DNA of 61,204 nt. Origin: Candidatus Wolfebacteria bacterium. Lineage in GTDB: Bacteria > Patescibacteriota > Minisyncoccia > Phycocordibacterales > EsbW-18. The translations under genes and the position numbers were made by a program. The notes beneath the pieces were generated by a model. The model was given only the letters and a program-made list of their open reading frames with translations. It was not told the origin of the DNA and ran no database searches. This document shows, piece by piece, positions 1,624 to 56,992 of the stretch. The stretch lies in contig JAKEFG010000014.1 of the NCBI GenBank assembly GCA_022616195.1, forward strand, positions 1 to 61,204, in the 5' to 3' direction. Numbering within the stretch: the first letter of the stretch is position 1; each line of letters opens with the position of its first letter.

Positions 1624-2616
1624 CTACTCTCCCTTTTTTGCTAACTCCGCGATAGCTTTCTGTGCCTGACCGATACTATCAGCACCCATAAGCCGCAGAA
1701 GAAACGCTTTGTTGTACCCGTCGCCCTTGAGGTAGCTCTTGAAATGTTTCTTCATCAGGTGAAATGACTTATGGGGCAGTAACTCCTGAAAGAGTGTCAG
1801 GTGTTCACCGAGAACCCGTAAACGCTCGGCAAGCGGCGGACGCTCCTCCACTACACCTACACTGCGGCTATTCTCTAATTCGCGCGAATTAGAGAATAGC
1901 CATGGGTTTCCAAAAATTGCGCGTCCGAGCATAATGCCGTCAGCACCGGTCTCCTCTGCCCGCCGCCGCGCGTCAGCCATATCTTCTATATCACCGTTGC
2001 CAATGATAACTGTTGCGCTTCCGAGAGTGTCACGCATCTGTACTGCGCGAGCTATTTCCTCCCAGTGCGCCGGCACCTTGGACATTTCTTTCTTCGTCCG
2101 GGCATGGAGTGCCACCGCCGCCGGCTCCGTTTCCAAAAGCGTCGGTAACCACGTATCAAGTTCATTCTCGTCGTAGCCGATGCGCGTCTTGATTGATACC
2201 GGAAGCCGTGTCGCCTCTTTTGTTGCGCGGATGATTTCCTGCGCAAGCTTCGGTGCCCGTATCATCGCCGCGCCCGCCCCCTGCTTGCAGACGCTCCGGT
2301 CAGGACACCCCATATTGATGTCCACGCCGTCAAACCCAAGCTTCTCCGCAAGCGCTGCCGCGCGCACCATAAGCTCCGGCTCACGACTAAAAAACTGCGC
2401 GACAATAGGACGCTCCGATTCGTCGTACTGCAGGTCTTTGACAAGTACGTCATAGCCACCCTTAAAGAGACCGTCGGCAGAAATAAACTCGGTCCACATG
2501 ACATCCGGCTTGCCATACCTCGCAATGATGCGGCGGAACGCAGCATCGGTCACGTCCGCCATGGGCGCAAGGCAGAAAAACGGCTTCGATAATGTGTCCC
2601 AAAATCCTCGGTTCAT
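1624..2616 (-). CDS. dus: tRNA-dihydrouridine synthase, carrying a 12-codon palindromic insertion
   Basis: 330-aa ORF with CLAPMADVTD, DINMGCP and GRAIFGNPWLF motifs of the Dus TIM barrel. The insertion is at 1866-1901. Confidence 0.9.
   Translation of the reverse strand: MNRGFWDTLSKPFFCLAPMADVTDAAFRRIIARYGKPDVMWTEFISADGLFKGGYDVLVKDLQYDESERPIVAQFFSREPELMVRAAALAEKLGFDGVDINMGCPDRSVCKQGAGAAMIRAPKLAQEIIRATKEATRLPVSIKTRIGYDENELDTWLPTLLETEPAAVALHARTKKEMSKVPAHWEEIARAVQMRDTLGSATVIIGNGDIEDMADARRRAEETGADGIMLGRAIFGNPWLFSNSRELENSRSVGVVEERPPLAERLRVLGEHLTLFQELLPHKSFHLMKKHFKSYLKGDGYNKAFLLRLMGADSIGQAQKAIAELAKKGE
1866..1901. repeat. Palindromic element, variant 2 (GGCTATTCTCTAATTCGCGCGAATTAGAGAATAGCC), inside dus
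   Basis: Perfect 36-nt palindrome. The 32-nt core is shared with the copies at 12837-12868 and 13185-13220. Confidence 0.9.
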
Positions 2617-2629
2617 ACACCTTGCTACG

Positions 2630-2661
2630 ACATTCCAACATTCTATAGAATGTTGGAATGT
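2630..2661. repeat. 32-nt perfect palindrome ACATTCCAACATTCTATAGAATGTTGGAATGT, a diverged member of the palindromic element family
   Basis: Perfect palindrome in the 55-nt spacer between the ftsQ-like stop and the dus start. It has the same length as the family core and shares an ATTC..A.ATTCT arm pattern with it. Confidence 0.7.
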
Positions 2662-2671
2662 GTTATTTGTG

Positions 2672-3523
2672 TCATTCGTTTTCTATTTGCGTATTAGTGT
2701 CGCGTTCCAATTTATAAAACACTTTGTTCCCGTAGCGCAAATCAATGTAGTCAACTTCAATGAGTCGCCCGTCTTCAAGACGCGTCTTGAGTTCGTTTGC
2801 CCCAAGCACTATTCTTAAATTCTCAAGAATTTGAGAATAGCCGTCGGCGGGGTCAAAGATAATCTCCGCGCCCCCTCTAAGTAACAGCCGGTACTCACGG
2901 TCACCGACAATCGTGAGTTCTACAGGCCCAATGCCAAGCCCCCGTGCCGAAACAACAAAACCGTTCAGTGAACGAAATGCGTCCGGTGCGAGCACTCTGT
3001 CCCCAATCGCACGTGCCGCCTCCGTGACACGGTACACAAACAACGACGCCGATACGTCACTCGCCACTAACGCCGGCGCAAAGATAAACCCGTCTGCATC
3101 AAGTAAAAAACATCGGGTGTCAGAGGCGCAGTATTTGGCAACCTCCTTGCGCTCGGCAACCGTAACCGAAATGGTCGTCAGGTTCTCTACATCAACATCA
3201 ACGTCCTTCACCCGCGGAAACCGCTTGACAATCTCGCGTTCAATGGAAAACCGCGGATACAAGAGAATGTTTCCGCGAGAAAAGAGGTAGAGATAGTGCC
3301 CCCGCACCTTCTCCCGCACCACATCAAGTAGCTGTGGCGACGGTGTGGCGCTGTTTCCGCGCACATTCACTGTGCGGATTGCCGTCGCCTCAACCATGGA
3401 GAGTTGGGAAAGAAGCAGAATGACCGAACCGATGATGGCGAGAAGATATGCCATCCCTTCAATCACAATCTGCCGACGCCGCTGCCGCAGCGTTTGTGTT
3501 CTGATGCGCCGCCTAAGCCGCAT
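2672..3523 (-). CDS. ftsQ: FtsQ-like cell-division protein (N-terminal TM segment plus POTRA domain), carrying a palindromic insertion
   Basis: 283-aa ORF with a basic N-terminus and a TM helix, followed by IRTVNVRGNS...VDVENLTTISVTVAERKEVA, which is typical of POTRA/FtsQ. The element lies at 2809-2840. Confidence 0.7.
   Translation of the reverse strand: MRLRRRIRTQTLRQRRRQIVIEGMAYLLAIIGSVILLLSQLSMVEATAIRTVNVRGNSATPSPQLLDVVREKVRGHYLYLFSRGNILLYPRFSIEREIVKRFPRVKDVDVDVENLTTISVTVAERKEVAKYCASDTRCFLLDADGFIFAPALVASDVSASLFVYRVTEAARAIGDRVLAPDAFRSLNGFVVSARGLGIGPVELTIVGDREYRLLLRGGAEIIFDPADGYSQILENLRIVLGANELKTRLEDGRLIEVDYIDLRYGNKVFYKLERDTNTQIENE
2809..2840. repeat. Palindromic element, variant 1 (CTATTCTTAAATTCTCAAGAATTTGAGAATAG), inside the ftsQ-like gene
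   Basis: 32-nt near-palindrome with one arm mismatch. It is read as YSQILENLRI on the coding (minus) strand. Confidence 0.9.
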
Positions 3524-11010: not shown

Positions 11011-11829
11011 TTGGATACCAACAACAAAAAACCCATGTCGTTTGACGCTCTACAAGTCGGACAGAAGTTCGGCCCGCACCCATTTTCGGTCAAAAAACTG
11101 TCGCACAAAAAATCTCTCGAGCTCCTCAACCAAAACACTCTTAGCAAAGAGCACATAAACACCCCGTACCTACTCCCTAGTGAGATTTGGGGACATGCGC
11201 GTTTGTTTTCGTCTCTCTTTGGCAAACTGAATGAGATGCTTATAACGACATCTCAATGGGAGATTCATAGCTCCATTCTACCCGAAGAAACTTTGTATGT
11301 AACAGGAACTATAACAAACAGAGAAGAAAATGGGGAGAAAAAAGTGGTAACATTTGAGACCGAGACGCGAGACAAAAACAAACGATTGTTGTTGCGGGCA
11401 AAGGACACACTCCTTTTCCTGCAAAACATAACTGGTTGGAAGTTCAAGGATAAAAAAATACAACCAACACCAGAAGGGCAATTATGTCTAAACCTACCAG
11501 TGAAAGTGTATTTTCGGCACGAATGGGATCCGAGCGTCTGGAAAAACAATATACACACCGATAAATACGCACAGACGCTCGGCTATAAACGAGGGTTACC
11601 CGAATTCACTGTTTTCTTTGATTGGATTTACGTTGCCCTAAAGCCCTTAGTGCCAGATCTAAATAAGAACAGCCTGAGAATTACTCTCCAAAAAATACTG
11701 CCTGTCTACGAAGACGATAGAATCAATATGCAGATATATAGGAATAATAATGAATACTCTATTCATTTCTTGAAGGACAGATATGAACGTATCCTGGCGC
11801 AGGCTTCTTTGATACTAGCACGGGAATGA
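11011..11829 (+). CDS. Hot-dog fold protein, MaoC-dehydratase-like (possibly a double hot-dog)
   Basis: 272-aa ORF. The C-terminal NIHTDKYAQTLGYKRGLPEF resembles the MaoC N.IH.D..A...G motif. The segment is visibly more AT-rich than its flanks. Its stop overlaps the miaA start (ATGA). Confidence 0.5.
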   Translation: MDTNNKKPMSFDALQVGQKFGPHPFSVKKLSHKKSLELLNQNTLSKEHINTPYLLPSEIWGHARLFSSLFGKLNEMLITTSQWEIHSSILPEETLYVTGTITNREENGEKKVVTFETETRDKNKRLLLRAKDTLLFLQNITGWKFKDKKIQPTPEGQLCLNLPVKVYFRHEWDPSVWKNNIHTDKYAQTLGYKRGLPEFTVFFDWIYVALKPLVPDLNKNSLRITLQKILPVYEDDRINMQIYRNNNEYSIHFLKDRYERILAQASLILARE

Positions 11830-12825
11830 AACCAAAACTCCTCGTCATTCTCGGACCGACGGCTTCAGGCAAGAGCACACTTGCCGTAGAGCTCACCAAG
11901 CAGTTTAATGGTGAGGTGATTTCTGCCGATTCGCGACAGGTGTACCGCGGACTTGATATTGGCACAGGCAAGGTCCCACGGGACTCAACCGACGACCAAC
12001 AACTTACAACCAGCGACTATTTTCACAAAGGCATCAGACATCATTTGCTTGATGTCGCGGAGCCAAACGACTATTTCTCCGTCGCCGATTACAAAAAACT
12101 GGCGGATGAAGCAATTCATACGATATATCGTATGAAAAAGCTGCCCATTCTCGCTGGCGGCACGGGGCTCTACGTTCAGGCAGTCGTCGATAACGTCGTA
12201 CCCCCAGAAGTACCACCCAACAAAAAACTCCGTGCTGAACTCGCGGAAAAATCAACGGGGGAGCTCTTCGCGGAACTCAAACGCCTTGACCCGACGCGGG
12301 CGGAAACGGTTGAGCGAGAAAACCCGCGCCGCCTCATCCGCGCCATTGAAATCGCGCGCGCACTGGAGAGCGTCCCCAGTCAAGATATCGCATTCCCCGC
12401 CGATTACAGCACAAGTCCCTATGACATACTCCAAATCGGTCTTGGCGTTCCCATTGAAACACTTACTGAGCACGTTCATGCTCGGGTCATTGAACGCCTG
12501 AAGAACGGGTGGGTGAATGAGGTACAGAATCTTCTTGCCCAAGGTGTTACACCGGAACACCTTGCCGAGTTTGGTCTCGGCTACAGGATTATCGCCTCCG
12601 CCATACAAAAAAACGGGGGGGGACGGAACCTATTCTCAAATTCTTGAGAATTTGAGAATAGGTTCCGAGAAGTGGAATAAGATGGTAGATACGATTACGA
12701 CTGCGGAGCGACGGTACGCCAAGCGCCAAATGCGGTGGTTTAAACGTGACCGGCGCATCCTGTGGTTCAGCCTTGGTGGGACAGAGAAAATCTTGAACGC
12801 GGTACAAAAATTCCTCCAAACATAA
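11826..12825 (+). CDS. miaA: tRNA dimethylallyltransferase MiaA; apparent +1 frameshift at a G8 tract, plus an in-frame palindromic insertion
   Basis: P-loop GPTASGKS, then SADSRQVYRGLDIGT and GGTGLY. The C-terminal YAKRQMRWF motif lies in the +1 frame (ORF 12517..12825). The two frames rejoin if the G-run at 12615-12622 is 7 nt rather than 8. Confidence 0.85.
12624..12667. repeat. Palindromic element, variant 1, extended to 44 nt (CGGAACC-TATTCTCAAATTCTTGAGAATTTGAGAATA-GGTTCCG), inside miaA
   Basis: 21-bp arms with a TG centre. It is read as YSQILENLRI in the downstream miaA frame. Confidence 0.9.
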
Positions 12826-12836
12826 CTGGTCTACAT

Positions 12837-12868
12837 CTATTCCACCACTCGCGCGAATTAGAGGAGGG
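12837..12868. repeat. Degenerate palindromic element, variant 2 (CTATTCCACCACTCGCGCGAATTAGAGGAGGG)
   Basis: It matches the variant 2 core at CTATTC.....(T)TCGCGCGAATTAGAG. It lies between the convergent miaA and arsR-family genes and contains the arsR-family stop codon. Confidence 0.6.
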
Positions 12869-13109
12869 ATACGATGGAGCGGGCCGGTTGTGAAAGTGTC
12901 CCGCCAAGACGGTAAAACACCTGTAAACTTCGCTGCTCGTGTTCCACAATATCCACCGCCGCCAAAAGCGAAAGGTGTTTTGACGTTGCCTTGAGTGAAA
13001 GACCGATTGCATCGGCAACCTCGCCTACCGCCGCCTCTTTCTCATCCTTGAGAAATTTCAGAATGGCGAGGCGCCGCCGGTTTGCAAGCGCTTTGAGCAC
13101 CCGCTCCAT
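12858..13109 (-). CDS. ArsR/SmtB-family transcriptional regulator
   Basis: MERVLKALANRRRLAILKFLKDEKEAAVGEVADAIGLSLKATSKHLSLL is a classic ArsR HTH. I chose the internal ATG at 13109 as the start. Confidence 0.8.
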   Translation of the reverse strand: MERVLKALANRRRLAILKFLKDEKEAAVGEVADAIGLSLKATSKHLSLLAAVDIVEHEQRSLQVFYRLGGTLSQPARSIVSLL

Positions 13110-13184
13110 TCGTACATTACTTTGTATATTACTACTCCGCATACATGCCCTGTGTCTGCCCCGCCACATCTACCCTACCACTAT

Positions 13185-13220
13185 CACTATTCTCTAATTC
13201 GCGCGAACTAGAGAATAGTG
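13185..13220. repeat. Palindromic element, variant 2, intergenic copy (CACTATTCTCTAATTCGCGCGAACTAGAGAATAGTG)
   Basis: 36-nt palindrome with one mismatch, lying between the MGMT-like stop and the arsR-family start. Confidence 0.85.
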
Positions 13221-17063: not shown

Positions 17064-17103
17064 TATACCCCCCACATGGAAATTTTTCCATGTGGGGGGT
17101 ATA
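17064..17103. repeat. GTATACCC-type hairpin (TATACCCCCCACATGGAAA-TT-TTTCCATGTGGGGGGTATA)
   Basis: 19-bp perfect arms, lying between the groEL stop and the lemA start. Confidence 0.8.
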
Positions 17104-27811: not shown

Positions 27812-28534
27812 TCATCCTTCGGCTGATTGATAATCGGTAGAGCCTAGTTGCTGAAAATAGTCGATGGCTTCTTCAGCGTCACCGCTTTCAAATATAGCAG
27901 ACCCGGCAACGAGTTTGTTCACACCTGCCTCCACGAGCTTGGGTGCGGTTTCCTCGTTCACGCCGATGTCAACCGCGATGGTCAGGTCAGGAAACTTCCT
28001 GCGGATAGTTTTCACTTTTTCATAGACGCGCTCATCAAGCTCCGCACCATGGTAGCCAATTCGGTCGTTCCCCATCACTTGCACGAAATCCGGCATGCCG
28101 TGTTCTTTAATAATCCGAAACAGTTCATCGTTCGGTGTGTTGGGCCTCATGCCCCACCCGACCTCCATCTCAGCTATTCTCAAATTCTTGAGAATTTGAG
28201 AATAGCTCCTGGTGGACTCAATGTGAATCACCGTGCCCACAATACCCGCGTGAATCCAGCCATCCAGATACTTCTCCGGCTCGGCAACGAGCATGTCTAC
28301 CTCGACATCAAGCTCGCGCCAGAACGGCAGTCCCTCGTCCTCGCGAACAATTCGCGCGAACTGTTCACTTACCTGTTTGGTCATGTCGTTGTACGGCCAC
28401 GTTGTTGTCGGCGCATAGCTGCCGTTCGCAATGTCTACTTGCACCCGTTCCACCAACCCCTTCACCCGCACCATATGCGCTTCAAGATCGTCAAAATCCT
28501 TTGGAATGATGGCCGGAACAACAGAGACAGTCAT
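27812..28534 (-). CDS. rpe: Ribulose-phosphate 3-epimerase-like TIM-barrel protein, carrying a palindromic insertion
   Basis: 240 aa with VVPAIIP...VQVDIANG and a C-terminal VDIGVNEETAPKLVEAGVNKLVAGSAIF. It sits in an operon-like block with rpiB, gap and tkt. The element lies at 28172-28207. Confidence 0.75.
   Translation of the reverse strand: MTVSVVPAIIPKDFDDLEAHMVRVKGLVERVQVDIANGSYAPTTTWPYNDMTKQVSEQFARIVREDEGLPFWRELDVEVDMLVAEPEKYLDGWIHAGIVGTVIHIESTRSYSQILKNLRIAEMEVGWGMRPNTPNDELFRIIKEHGMPDFVQVMGNDRIGYHGAELDERVYEKVKTIRRKFPDLTIAVDIGVNEETAPKLVEAGVNKLVAGSAIFESGDAEEAIDYFQQLGSTDYQSAEG
28172..28207. repeat. Palindromic element, variant 1 (AGCTATTCTCAAATTCTTGAGAATTTGAGAATAGCT), inside the rpe-like gene
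   Basis: 36-nt palindrome with a TG centre. It is read as YSQILKNLRI on the coding (minus) strand. Confidence 0.9.
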
Positions 28535-38150: not shown

Positions 38151-38192
38151 TATACCCAGCACCACTTTTATATAAAAGTGGTGCTGGGTGTA
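38151..38192. repeat. GTATACCC-type hairpin (36-nt perfect palindrome ACCCAGCACCACTTTTATATAAAAGTGGTGCTGGGT)
   Basis: It lies in the 87-nt divergent spacer between the GT4 start and the gdh start. Confidence 0.85.
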
Positions 38193-49500: not shown

Positions 49501-49510
49501 ACCATATACC

Positions 49511-49539
49511 AAACTCTAGCGATTAATCGCTAGAGTTTT
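49511..49539. terminator. Bidirectional rho-independent terminator between convergent genes
   Basis: AAACTCTAGCG-ATTAAT-CGCTAGAGTTTT. It has an A-run on one side and a T-run on the other. Confidence 0.6.
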
Positions 49540-49553
49540 GTAAAGGGTGTCGC

Positions 49554-55527: not shown

Positions 55528-55571
55528 GTATACCCCGCACCATTTTTAAATAAAAATGGTGCGGGGTATAC
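55528..55571. repeat. GTATACCC-type hairpin (GTATACCCCGCACCATTTTTA-AA-TAAAAATGGTGCGGGGTATAC)
   Basis: 21-bp perfect arms. Overlapping ORFs on both strands read the same KNGAGYT peptide here, as expected for a palindrome. Confidence 0.85.
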
Positions 55572-56946: not shown

Positions 56947-56992
56947 GTATACCCAGCACCGCTTTTGCGAACAAAAGCGGTGCTGGGTATAC
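56947..56992. repeat. GTATACCC-type hairpin (GTATACCCAGCACCGCTTTTG-CGAA-CAAAAGCGGTGCTGGGTATAC)
   Basis: 21-bp perfect arms, in the divergent spacer between the sleB-like and sod genes. A partial extra arm, TATACCCC, lies at 56917-56924. Confidence 0.85.

What the first reader, a model, noticed from the sequence alone, without database searches (positions are those of the whole stretch)
28172..28207. Variant 1 element (36 nt, 12 codons) in-frame inside the ribulose-phosphate-epimerase-like gene
AGCTATTCTCAAATTCTTGAGAATTTGAGAATAGCT is a perfect palindrome apart from the 2-nt centre. It is translated as ...IESTRSYSQILKNLRIAEMEVG..., between the beta-strand ending in HIES and the GWGM/PNTP strand of the TIM barrel. 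This is a fourth conserved metabolic or housekeeping gene carrying the element in the single permissive frame. That implies strong purifying selection on frame, or a mechanism that tolerates or removes the element.
Basis: seen in the sequence. Interest (0 to 1): 0.7.

Follow-up and report, generated by a model that had tools for sequence, protein, structure and literature searches.

The report
Regulator-site palindrome encoding an enzyme helix
The 36-base palindrome is real, but it adds no residues: it spells a native helix of the pentose-phosphate epimerase and is probably one copy of the DNA site of a small ArsR-type regulator found across Patescibacteria.

Summary
The palindrome AGCTATTCTCAAATTCT-TG-AGAATTTGAGAATAGCT sits at 28172-28207, in frame in a 240-aa Rpe-like gene on the minus strand. 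It is not an insertion. Thirty CPR orthologues and the solved human and rice Rpe structures have the same length at this site. An AlphaFold model (pLDDT 93) makes residues 111-120, YSQILKNLRI, helix alpha-4 of the barrel.

The DNA belongs to a family with the skeleton ATTCT-N3-ATTC(T/G)-N2-(A/C)GAAT-N3-AGAAT. The window holds six copies and one degenerate copy. A 30-nt pattern matched at least 117 stretches in representative genomes, nearly all Patescibacteria.

Orthologous Rpe genes of one clade carry the palindrome at the same codons, with compensatory arm changes and excess synonymous conservation. More distant orthologues lack it.

A gene for an ArsR/SmtB-type winged-helix protein of about 86 aa lies within 160 nt of a copy in 31 of 117 loci. 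It is flanked on both sides in 4 of 4 loci chosen by protein similarity alone. Two protein subtypes match two palindrome subtypes without exception.

Best reading: a cognate protein-binding site embedded in coding DNA. Binding is untested, and so is any role of the Rpe copy. Other copies (MiaA, Tgt) do add 11-18 codons, so a REP/RPE-like spreading process remains possible.

The parts
28172..28207 (.). The 36-nt palindrome of the finding (17-2-17). The conserved 32-nt family core is 28174-28205. T-type subfamily: ATTCT-CAA-ATTCT-TG-AGAAT-TTG-AGAAT.
28175..28204 (-). Ten codons TAT TCT CAA ATT CTC AAG AAT TTG AGA ATA = Y111-I120, which form helix alpha-4 of the (beta/alpha)8 barrel.
   Evidence: AlphaFold model: H111-120 between E100-104 and E124-129, pLDDT about 97-98. 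No gap against solved Rpe structures or against 29 CPR orthologues.
27812..28534 (-). Rpe-like gene (240 aa) in a GAPDH-RpiB-Rpe-(membrane protein)-transketolase block.
   Evidence: same gene order in orthologous loci
12628..12663 (.). Copy with a 32-nt core identical to the Rpe copy (the perfect palindrome extends to 12624-12667), inside MiaA. Here it is insertion-like: 13-18 extra residues compared with 22 orthologues.
2807..2842 (.). T-type copy with one arm mismatch, inside the FtsQ/POTRA-like gene 2672..3523 (-), read as YSQILENLRI.
1866..1901 (.). G-type copy (ATTCT-CTA-ATTCG-CG-CGAAT-TAG-AGAAT) inside Dus 1624..2616 (-), read as LFSNSRELENS. The same Dus site is occupied in at least 10 other genomes. 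It overlays native sequence within +/-1 codon.
2630..2661 (.). Third subfamily with the same skeleton (ATTCC-AAC-ATTCT-AT-AGAAT-GTT-GGAAT). Intergenic, 14 nt upstream of the Dus start codon.
   Evidence: the same subfamily occurs in L207
13185..13220 (.). G-type copy 43-76 nt upstream of the ArsR-type gene; the presumed auto-operator.
12858..13142 (-). Gene for an ArsR/SmtB-type winged-helix protein (HTHa, 83-94 aa depending on the start codon, no cysteine). It is the presumed binding protein of the G-type palindromes. The partner of the T-type Rpe copy (HTHb) is not encoded in the window.
12837..12868 (.). Degenerate G-type copy (CTATTCCACCACTCGCGCGAATTAGAGGAGGG) that contains the stop codon of the ArsR-type gene, as in other genomes (...SIL*/...SLL*).

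Best explanation
The palindrome is one copy of a Patescibacteria-wide family of DNA sites built from four pentamers, 14-2-14: ATTCT-N3-ATTC(T/G)-N2-(A/C)GAAT-N3-AGAAT. These sites are most likely bound by dimers of a small ArsR/SmtB-type winged-helix protein. That protein's own gene is bracketed by two copies, one just upstream of the start codon (auto-operator position) and one over the stop codon. There are two protein subtypes, and each goes with its own palindrome subtype. The Rpe copy is the T-type and is identical to copies that sit beside HTHb genes in other genomes.

In Rpe the site is not an insert. It is written into the ten codons of native helix alpha-4, so the same 30 bases serve as a structural helix and as a DNA motif. 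It arose once in the ancestor of one Rpe clade. Since then it has been kept under DNA-level constraint in some lineages and has decayed in others.

Shown here: the lack of any length change; the helix assignment; family membership; conservation at the orthologous site with compensatory changes; excess synonymous conservation; and the gene-palindrome association with matching subtypes. Inferred: that the protein binds the palindrome. Unknown: what binding at the Rpe site does. Candidates are a transcriptional roadblock or internal control of the downstream transketolase genes, or a nucleoid or marker role.
For: Not an insertion: there is no gap against human or rice Rpe (HIESTRSYSQILKNLRIAEMEVGWG against HLEATENPGALIKDIRENGMKVGLA) or against 29 CPR orthologues. 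The AlphaFold model, pLDDT 93.3, has H111-120 = YSQILKNLRI.

Family: six skeleton matches in the window against 0.02 expected. At least 117 genomic stretches match a 30-nt pattern, nearly all in Patescibacteria MAGs. There are none in 2.9 million viral contigs.

Conserved at the orthologous Rpe site: seven orthologues at 60-73% identity carry it at the same codons. P0006 has CATTCT-CAC-ATTCT-TG-AGAAT-GTG-AGAATG, a perfect palindrome with Q->H paired with L->V. P0010 has GCA/TGC spacers. The H..M codons CAT..ATG replace the Y..I codons TAT..ATA. In orthologues at 38-53% identity where the site could be located, the skeleton scores only 2-11 of 20. The tree fits one origin with several decays.

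DNA-level constraint: given an identical amino acid, the codon is identical in 74% of pairs inside the palindrome and 42% elsewhere, at equal amino-acid identity.

Protein partner: an ArsR-type gene lies within 160 nt of a copy in 31 of 117 loci and in the window. It is flanked by two copies 320-400 nt apart in six loci. In 4 of 4 loci chosen only by HTHa protein similarity, a copy ends 10-36 nt before the ATG and another lies at or over the stop codon. HTHa goes with CGAAT inner pentamers in 23 of 23 cases and HTHb with ATTCT/AGAAT in 15 of 15. HTHa passes the NCBIfam ArsR/SmtB cut-off, and the nearest solved relatives are HlyU and NolR. In several HTH-flanking copies the pentamers are kept while the spacers lose symmetry, as expected for a protein site rather than a hairpin.
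Against: No binding experiment exists. The HTHb partner of the T-type Rpe copy is not encoded in the window.

Twenty-three of 78 intergenic copies lie between convergent genes, where there is no promoter to regulate. About a quarter of copies are inside genes. A classical small regulon therefore does not describe the distribution.

The 2-4 bp outside the conserved core vary between copies yet stay complementary (60/56/44% against about 27%). A dimeric protein site does not predict this.

In MiaA and Tgt the family adds 11-18 codons, which looks like insertion of a mobile sequence.

How a family consensus came to replace a native helix codon for codon is unexplained.
Confidence: 0.55

Rival explanations
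1. Selfish, REP/RPE-like mobile palindrome. The family spreads by insertion, or by copy-paste conversion, into intergenic and coding DNA. The copies that survive are those read in an open frame as an amphipathic helix. The ArsR-type gene is merely a favoured neighbour or a host factor. The Rpe copy would be an old insertion followed by loss of the redundant native helix.
For: Copies are dispersed through genes, 3' ends and 5' ends. The 32-nt cores in MiaA and Rpe are identical. MiaA and Tgt have clean insertion-like gaps of 11-18 residues. The outer pairs are variable but complementary. The encoded peptides are helix-like, as in Rickettsia RPEs and PARCELs (PMC2996958 appeared in the results; the comparison rests on my own knowledge).
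Against: There is no target-site duplication. No transposase or nuclease family recurs near 117 copies. The one Y1 transposase seen is an IS inserted into an HTH gene. In Rpe and Dus the length change is 0 and +/-1 codon. The Rpe and Dus sites are kept across deep divergence with excess synonymous conservation, unlike neutral decay. The perfect match of HTH subtype to palindrome subtype needs specific recognition.
Confidence: 0.25
2. RNA-level element. The transcribed palindrome forms a 16-bp hairpin in the mRNA that acts as an RNase III or stability determinant, a terminator, or a translational pause. The symmetry would be kept for RNA pairing.
For: The predicted hairpin is -27.5 kcal/mol, z = -5.7. 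Compensatory arm changes occur in orthologues. Symmetric spacers occur in at least 10 types. Outer pairs are complementary. Many copies sit at 3' ends, including between convergent genes.
Against: A DNA-binding protein gene, not an RNA-binding one, is the conserved neighbour, and its subtypes match the palindrome subtypes. HTH-flanking copies keep the pentamers but lose spacer pairing. The conserved part is sequence (four pentamers), not just pairing. There is no T-run after the stem and no Rfam family. Symmetric changes are also expected when one protein monomer reads both half-sites.
Confidence: 0.12
3. Uptake or recombination signal. The palindrome would be a DNA uptake sequence for the competence machinery of these bacteria, or a site for a site-specific recombinase, accumulated by biased uptake and recombination. 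That would explain replacement without length change.
For: Replacement without indels in Rpe and Dus resembles how uptake sequences accumulate in coding DNA; this is established knowledge for the Pasteurellaceae and Neisseriaceae, recalled from my own knowledge. The motif is shared across many related lineages, with 'dialects'.
Against: The density is low: six copies and one degenerate copy in 61 kb, against about one per kb for known uptake sequences. The motif is a long perfect palindrome rather than a short oriented core. This reading does not explain the bracketing of a winged-helix gene or the subtype matching.
Confidence: 0.05

Closest known systems
ArsR/SmtB-family autorepressors and their 12-2-12 inverted-repeat operators (SmtB, CzrA, NmtR; non-metal members HlyU, NolR, BigR)
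   Same: The protein is a small winged-helix protein that passes the NCBIfam ArsR/SmtB cut-off. The site is a two-fold symmetric repeat with a 2-nt centre lying just upstream of the regulator's own start codon.
   Different: The site is longer, 14-2-14, built of four pentamers. A second copy lies over the stop codon. Further copies are dispersed through the genome, including inside conserved genes. The window protein has no cysteine, and I saw no obvious metal-site motif by eye. There is no adjacent efflux or detoxification gene. Binding has not been shown.
Rickettsia palindromic elements (RPE) and PARCELs: palindromic repeats translated in frame within proteins
   Same: A repeated palindrome is read in frame as a helix-like peptide in housekeeping proteins. 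Some copies (MiaA, Tgt) add residues relative to orthologues.
   Different: This family is 32-36 nt rather than about 100-150 nt. The Rpe and Dus copies replace native residues one for one instead of adding a surface segment. It is tied to a DNA-binding protein gene. It is found in Patescibacteria, not Rickettsia.
REP/REPIN elements with their RAYT transposases
   Same: Short dispersed palindromes. An associated gene is bracketed by copies. Subfamilies of the gene match subfamilies of the repeat.
   Different: The bracketed gene is a winged-helix protein of about 86 aa with no HUH/Y1 catalytic domain. About a quarter of copies lie inside genes. There is no GTAG head.
Chromosomal protein-binding palindromes that lie inside genes (parS/ParB, Noc-binding sites, matS/MatP)
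   Same: Tens of palindromic sites or fewer per genome, often inside coding sequence and conserved across taxa because the binding protein is conserved. A site lies next to the protein's own gene (comparison from my own knowledge).
   Different: The protein family differs (ArsR-type rather than ParB or MatP). The site is about twice as long. No positional bias along the chromosome could be tested.

Membership tests
RPE-type in-frame inserted palindromic element | Adds residues relative to orthologues that lack the element | tested here: not met
   The Rpe copy shows zero length difference against 29 CPR orthologues and the solved human and rice Rpe structures. It encodes native helix alpha-4. 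The feature is met for other copies: MiaA +13-18 aa and Tgt about +11 aa.
RPE-type in-frame inserted palindromic element | Repeated palindromic sequence translated in frame within conserved proteins | tested here: met
RPE-type in-frame inserted palindromic element | Element length of about 100-150 bp, genus Rickettsia | tested here: not met
   The family is 32-36 nt, and the matching genomes are Patescibacteria MAGs.
REP/REPIN-RAYT | Associated Y1 (HUH) transposase gene flanked by the repeats | tested here: not met
   The flanked gene is an ArsR-type winged-helix gene. No transposase cluster was found near 117 copies. The single Y1_Tnp (L208) is an IS inserted into an HTH gene.
REP/REPIN-RAYT | Extragenic location | tested here: not met
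   About 30 of 127 copies lie well inside long ORFs.
MITE (cut-and-paste) | Target-site duplication flanking the element | tested here: not met
   There is no excess of direct repeats of 3 bp or more at any offset.
ArsR/SmtB regulator with inverted-repeat operator | Regulator is a member of the ArsR/SmtB winged-helix family | tested here: met
   NCBIfam NF033788 scores 64.5 and 67.8 bits against a cut-off of 55 for HTHa. HTHb scores 34 bits, below the cut-off, but it hits HTH_20/MarR/HTH_5 in Pfam. PDB matches are HlyU, NolR and SmtB.
ArsR/SmtB regulator with inverted-repeat operator | Two-fold symmetric site next to or overlapping the regulator's own promoter | tested here: met
   A copy lies upstream of the start codon in the window and in 22 other cases. 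In 4 of 4 loci chosen by protein similarity it ends 10-36 nt before the ATG.
ArsR/SmtB regulator with inverted-repeat operator | The protein binds the site | not testable with these tools
   Only indirect support: subtype matching in 23 of 23 and 15 of 15 cases.
ArsR/SmtB regulator with inverted-repeat operator | The cognate regulator of this particular (T-type) copy is present in the same genome | tested here: inconclusive
   Only HTHa is encoded in the 61-kb window. HTHb lies beside identical T-type copies in L009, L012, L039, L066 and L085.
DNA uptake sequence | Very high genomic density (about 1 per kb) of a short oriented core | tested here: not met
   Six copies and one degenerate copy in 61 kb, and the motif is a 30-nt palindrome.
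Ribulose-phosphate 3-epimerase (host gene) | Pfam PF00834 match and (beta/alpha)8 fold | tested here: met
   E=1.5e-22. The model has eight beta/alpha units at pLDDT 93. Two metal ligands differ (Gln32, Asp80), so activity is inferred from the family match and the PPP gene context.

The most novel reading that the evidence does not exclude
Patescibacteria carry a transposase-less system in which paralogous ArsR-type proteins and their four-pentamer palindromes co-evolve, and the palindromes propagate by copy-paste that can overwrite native codons as well as insert. Structural helices of core enzymes (Rpe alpha-4, the Dus 'PW-LFSNS' helix) would then be encoded by regulator-binding DNA and kept for that reason. 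This would be a protein-guided, REP-like repeat family that writes itself into proteins.
Probability: 0.2. Interest if true: 0.8.

Novelty: new variant of a known kind. Interest (0 to 1): 0.6.

Why it matters
Almost nothing is known about gene regulation or genome organisation in Patescibacteria (the Candidate Phyla Radiation). This work gives a concrete, testable pair: a small, highly conserved ArsR-type protein (at least 865 sequence clusters) and a 30-nt site shared across many classes. The sites are conserved inside core genes such as Dus, Rpe, Tgt and MiaA.

It also gives a clean example of dual coding. The same 30 bases specify a TIM-barrel helix and a symmetric DNA motif, and compensatory amino-acid changes (Q/L to H/V or A/C) are driven by DNA symmetry rather than by protein need.

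For annotation it carries a warning. A perfect palindromic repeat in a gene is not necessarily an insertion, and a check against orthologues can overturn that reading.

Tried and rejected
1. RAYT lead. A Y1_Tnp gene in L208 appeared to be flanked by family copies. Reading the DNA showed an IS200/IS605-type insertion, with its own hairpin ends, inside a second HTHa gene. The palindromes flank the HTH gene, not the transposase.

2. Neighbourhood clustering. This gave 'UvrA' (14 loci) and 'RarA' (8 loci) clusters. Most members were weak ATPase cross-hits. The gene after Dus is DnaX. I dropped the DNA-repair regulon idea.

3. Target-site duplications: none.

4. Viral contigs: no exact match.

5. 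Rfam: only sub-threshold generic hairpin hits to miRNA precursor models.

6. Literature: four full-text searches found no description of this element or regulator pairing.

7. RNA-level removal of the element: unnecessary, because the peptide is the native helix.

8. Chance origin from codon usage of an amphipathic helix: rejected. The 32-nt core is identical in MiaA, and 30-nt cores are identical beside HTHb genes in other genomes.

9. The metagenome scan for Rpe relatives returned only distant orthologues, at 38-53% identity. These served as palindrome-free outgroups but gave no close presence/absence pair.

Full report
THE OBSERVATION

The sequence AGCTATTCTCAAATTCTTGAGAATTTGAGAATAGCT is at window 28172-28207. 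It consists of two 17-nt arms that are 100% complementary around a 2-nt centre. It lies in ORF 27812..28534 on the minus strand, 240 aa, Pfam Ribul_P_3_epim, E=1.5e-22. It is read as HIESTR-SYSQILKNLRIA-EMEVGWGMRPNTP.

It is not a chance feature:
- The full pattern with up to three mismatches finds a second site in MiaA, with 0.00 matches expected.
- The window holds 15 long palindromes, against none in each of five shuffles.

Three of the six frames through this copy are open, not one. The second minus-strand frame (LFSNSQEFEN) is used in other genomes.

NOT AN INSERTION

They do.
- Against the solved structures there is no gap: HIESTRSYSQILKNLRIAEMEVGWGMRPNTP aligns with human HLEATENPGALIKDIRENGMKVGLAIKPGTS and with the rice enzyme.
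- In an alignment of 30 CPR orthologues, every sequence has the same length at the site apart from a one-residue deletion in P0012 and downstream insertions in P0002 and P0114. This includes those with unrelated peptides there, such as DYGHITEQLREQ, KYKEVADKLKDN, AHGDIFKKLKDA and EIEKIIQKIKDM.
- An AlphaFold2 model built from that alignment (mean pLDDT 93.3, pTM 0.90) has strand 100-104 (VIHIE), helix 111-120 and strand 124-129. The helix is exactly YSQILKNLRI, the ten codons of the 30-nt core, at pLDDT about 97-98.

The palindrome therefore encodes native helix alpha-4 of the barrel. Nothing has to be removed from the RNA or tolerated as extra sequence.

A FAMILY WITH A DEFINED SKELETON

Comparing copies shows four pentamers: ATTCT-N3-ATTC(T/G)-N2-(A/C)GAAT-N3-AGAAT, usually closed by C...G.

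The window has six matches, with 0.02 expected:
- 1866-1901, in Dus
- 2630-2661, intergenic, a third subtype
- 2807-2842, in an FtsQ-like gene
- 12628-12663, in MiaA
- 13185-13220, intergenic
- 28172-28207, in Rpe

There is also a degenerate copy at 12837-12868.

Nearly all are Patescibacteria/Parcubacteria MAGs: Kaiser-, Sung-, Taylor-, Vogel-, Yanofsky-, Lloyd-, Lipton-, Moran-, Nealson- and Portnoybacteria. It found none in 2.9 million viral contigs.

Although the pattern allowed mixed arms, the spacer bases were always complementary in the 126 occurrences: CAA/TTG or CTA/TAG. A looser scan adds at least eight further symmetric spacer types.

About a quarter of the copies lie inside long ORFs and the rest are intergenic. 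There is no target-site duplication, no Rfam match, and no description in four literature searches.

THE RPE SITE IS CONSERVED AS DNA

I fetched the DNA of seven orthologues at 60-73% identity. All carry the skeleton at the same codons, scoring 17-20 of 20.

The differences are telling:
- P0006 reads CATTCT-CAC-ATTCT-TG-AGAAT-GTG-AGAATG. This is a perfect palindrome in which Q->H is matched by L->V.
- P0010 has GCA/TGC spacers (Q->A matched by L->C).
- Several orthologues have CAT...ATG (H...M) where the window has TAT...ATA (Y...I).

Among these eight genes, the codon is identical in 74% of pairs with an identical amino acid inside the palindrome, against 42% elsewhere. Amino-acid identity is the same in both (61% against 64%).

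Eighty more distant orthologues (38-53% identity) came from metagenomes. In those where the site could be located, the skeleton scores only 2-11 of 20.

On a neighbour-joining tree with the site masked, the palindrome-bearing genes are spread through one clade, together with members that have lost it. Outgroups lack it. One origin with several decays is the simplest history.

THE ASSOCIATED PROTEIN

In six loci two copies lay 320-400 nt apart. In every case the gene between them encodes a protein of about 90 aa of the KALANKRRLAIL... or KGVANHHRIDIL... type, and its stop codon lies in the downstream copy.

The window has the same unit:
- ORF 12858..13142/13169 on the minus strand
- a G-type copy upstream at 13185-13220
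- a degenerate copy over the stop codon

The proteins are ArsR/SmtB-type winged-helix proteins. They hit Pfam HTH_20 and HTH_5. HTHa scores 64.5-67.8 bits on NCBIfam NF033788 against a cut-off of 55. The best solved relatives are HlyU and NolR.

Such a gene lies within 160 nt of a copy in 31 of the 117 loci. It is by far the most recurrent neighbour, and no transposase family recurs.

The two protein subtypes sort perfectly with the inner pentamers: HTHa with CGAAT in 23 of 23 cases, HTHb with ATTCT/AGAAT in 15 of 15. The Rpe copy is T-type and identical to copies beside HTHb genes in L009, L012, L039, L066 and L085.

That sample was chosen by the palindrome, so I ran an independent test. HTHa has at least 865 homologue clusters, named only generically in Patescibacteria MAGs. 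Four were picked by protein similarity alone. All four have a G-type copy ending 10-36 nt before the start codon and another at or over the stop codon. In several of these the pentamers are kept while the spacers are no longer complementary. That fits a protein site better than a hairpin.

One apparent RAYT-like Y1 transposase turned out to be an IS inserted into a second HTHa gene.

HOW THE FAMILY BEHAVES IN OTHER GENES

- Dus carries a copy at the same site (G-N/R/T-P-W/F/S followed by LFSNSxELEN) in the window and at least ten other genomes, with either subtype. Against T. maritima Dus the peptide aligns one to one (WLFSNSRELENS against WIFKQIKDFLRS). Against a CPR Dus without the palindrome the difference is one codon. 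This is replacement again.
- MiaA behaves differently. In the window, and in one relative whose copy reads IYSTILQNCGID, it has 13-18 extra residues compared with 22 orthologues.
- Tgt with the element has about 11 extra residues.
- Other recurrent sites occur in a GT1 glycosyltransferase and in PMT/ArnT-like proteins.

The family therefore both overlays and inserts.

INTERPRETATION

The best-supported reading is that the palindromes are the cognate DNA sites of these winged-helix proteins. The architecture resembles the 12-2-12 operators of ArsR/SmtB autorepressors (from my own knowledge). The Rpe copy is such a site embedded in coding DNA. Binding is inferred, not shown.

What the site does inside Rpe is unknown. 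It lies about 370 nt upstream of the next gene, which is transketolase in most orthologous loci.

Three observations do not fit a simple operator model:
- Twenty-three of 78 intergenic copies lie between convergent genes.
- The 2-4 bp outside the core vary yet stay complementary.
- Some copies are insertion-like.

These keep two rival readings alive. One is a REP/RPE-like spreading process. The other is a role for the hairpin, which is predicted at -27.5 kcal/mol, z = -5.7, in the mRNA. A mutational mechanism that perfects quasi-palindromes by template switching could also maintain the symmetry without selection; that idea comes from my own knowledge and was not tested.

VERDICT

- Observation: confirmed.
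- What is there: a coding-embedded member of a previously undescribed, CPR-wide palindrome family coupled to an ArsR-type protein.
- Novelty: a new variant of known kinds (operator palindromes, REP-like repeats, translated palindromes).
- Interest: 0.6.

Noticed in passing
window 12590-12665: The MiaA reading frame breaks just before the palindrome, next to an A7 run (12608-12614) and a G8 run (12615-12622). The N-terminal ORF 11826..12647 stops inside the element. The conserved C-terminus (TITTAERRYAKRQMRWFKRD...) continues in ORF 12517..12825. This is an assembly error in a homopolymer, a pseudogene, or a programmed shift.
   Followed up: partly
window 17064-17103, 38151-38192, 55528-55571, 56947-56992: A second, unrelated palindrome family, (G)TATACCC(C/A)(G/C)CAC..., with 19-21-nt arms. 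The copies appear mostly intergenic.
   Followed up: no
window 2630-2661; L207 4626-4653: A third subfamily of the pentamer palindrome (CATTCCAACATTCT-NN-AGAATGTTGGAATG). It lies 14 nt upstream of the Dus start codon in the window, and inside an FAD-oxidase gene in another genome that also has an extra weak HTH_5 gene.
   Followed up: partly
L208 7040-7911: A second HTHa gene, still bracketed by family palindromes, is split by an IS200/IS605-type insertion that carries a Y1 transposase and its own CCCCGCGG...-type hairpin ends.
   Followed up: yes
window 27812-28534 (protein residues 32 and 80): The CPR Rpe-like family has invariant Gln32 and Asp80 where human RPE has the metal ligands His35 and His70. 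It may use a different metal site or chemistry.
   Followed up: no
window 49507-49542: An isolated 36-nt perfect-centre palindrome, TACCAAACTCTAGCGATTAATCGCTAGAGTTTTGTA, unrelated to the pentamer family.
   Followed up: no
L081 about 3241: A Dus gene whose reading frame shifts at the palindrome, so that it is read as SYSQILKNLRI instead of LFSNS.... This is a frameshifted pseudogene or an assembly error at the repeat.
   Followed up: no
window 1624-3523 and 495-1571: The gene order FtsQ-like, Dus, DnaX is conserved across many of the fetched Parcubacteria loci. Family palindromes lie in the first two genes and in the gap between them.
   Followed up: partly
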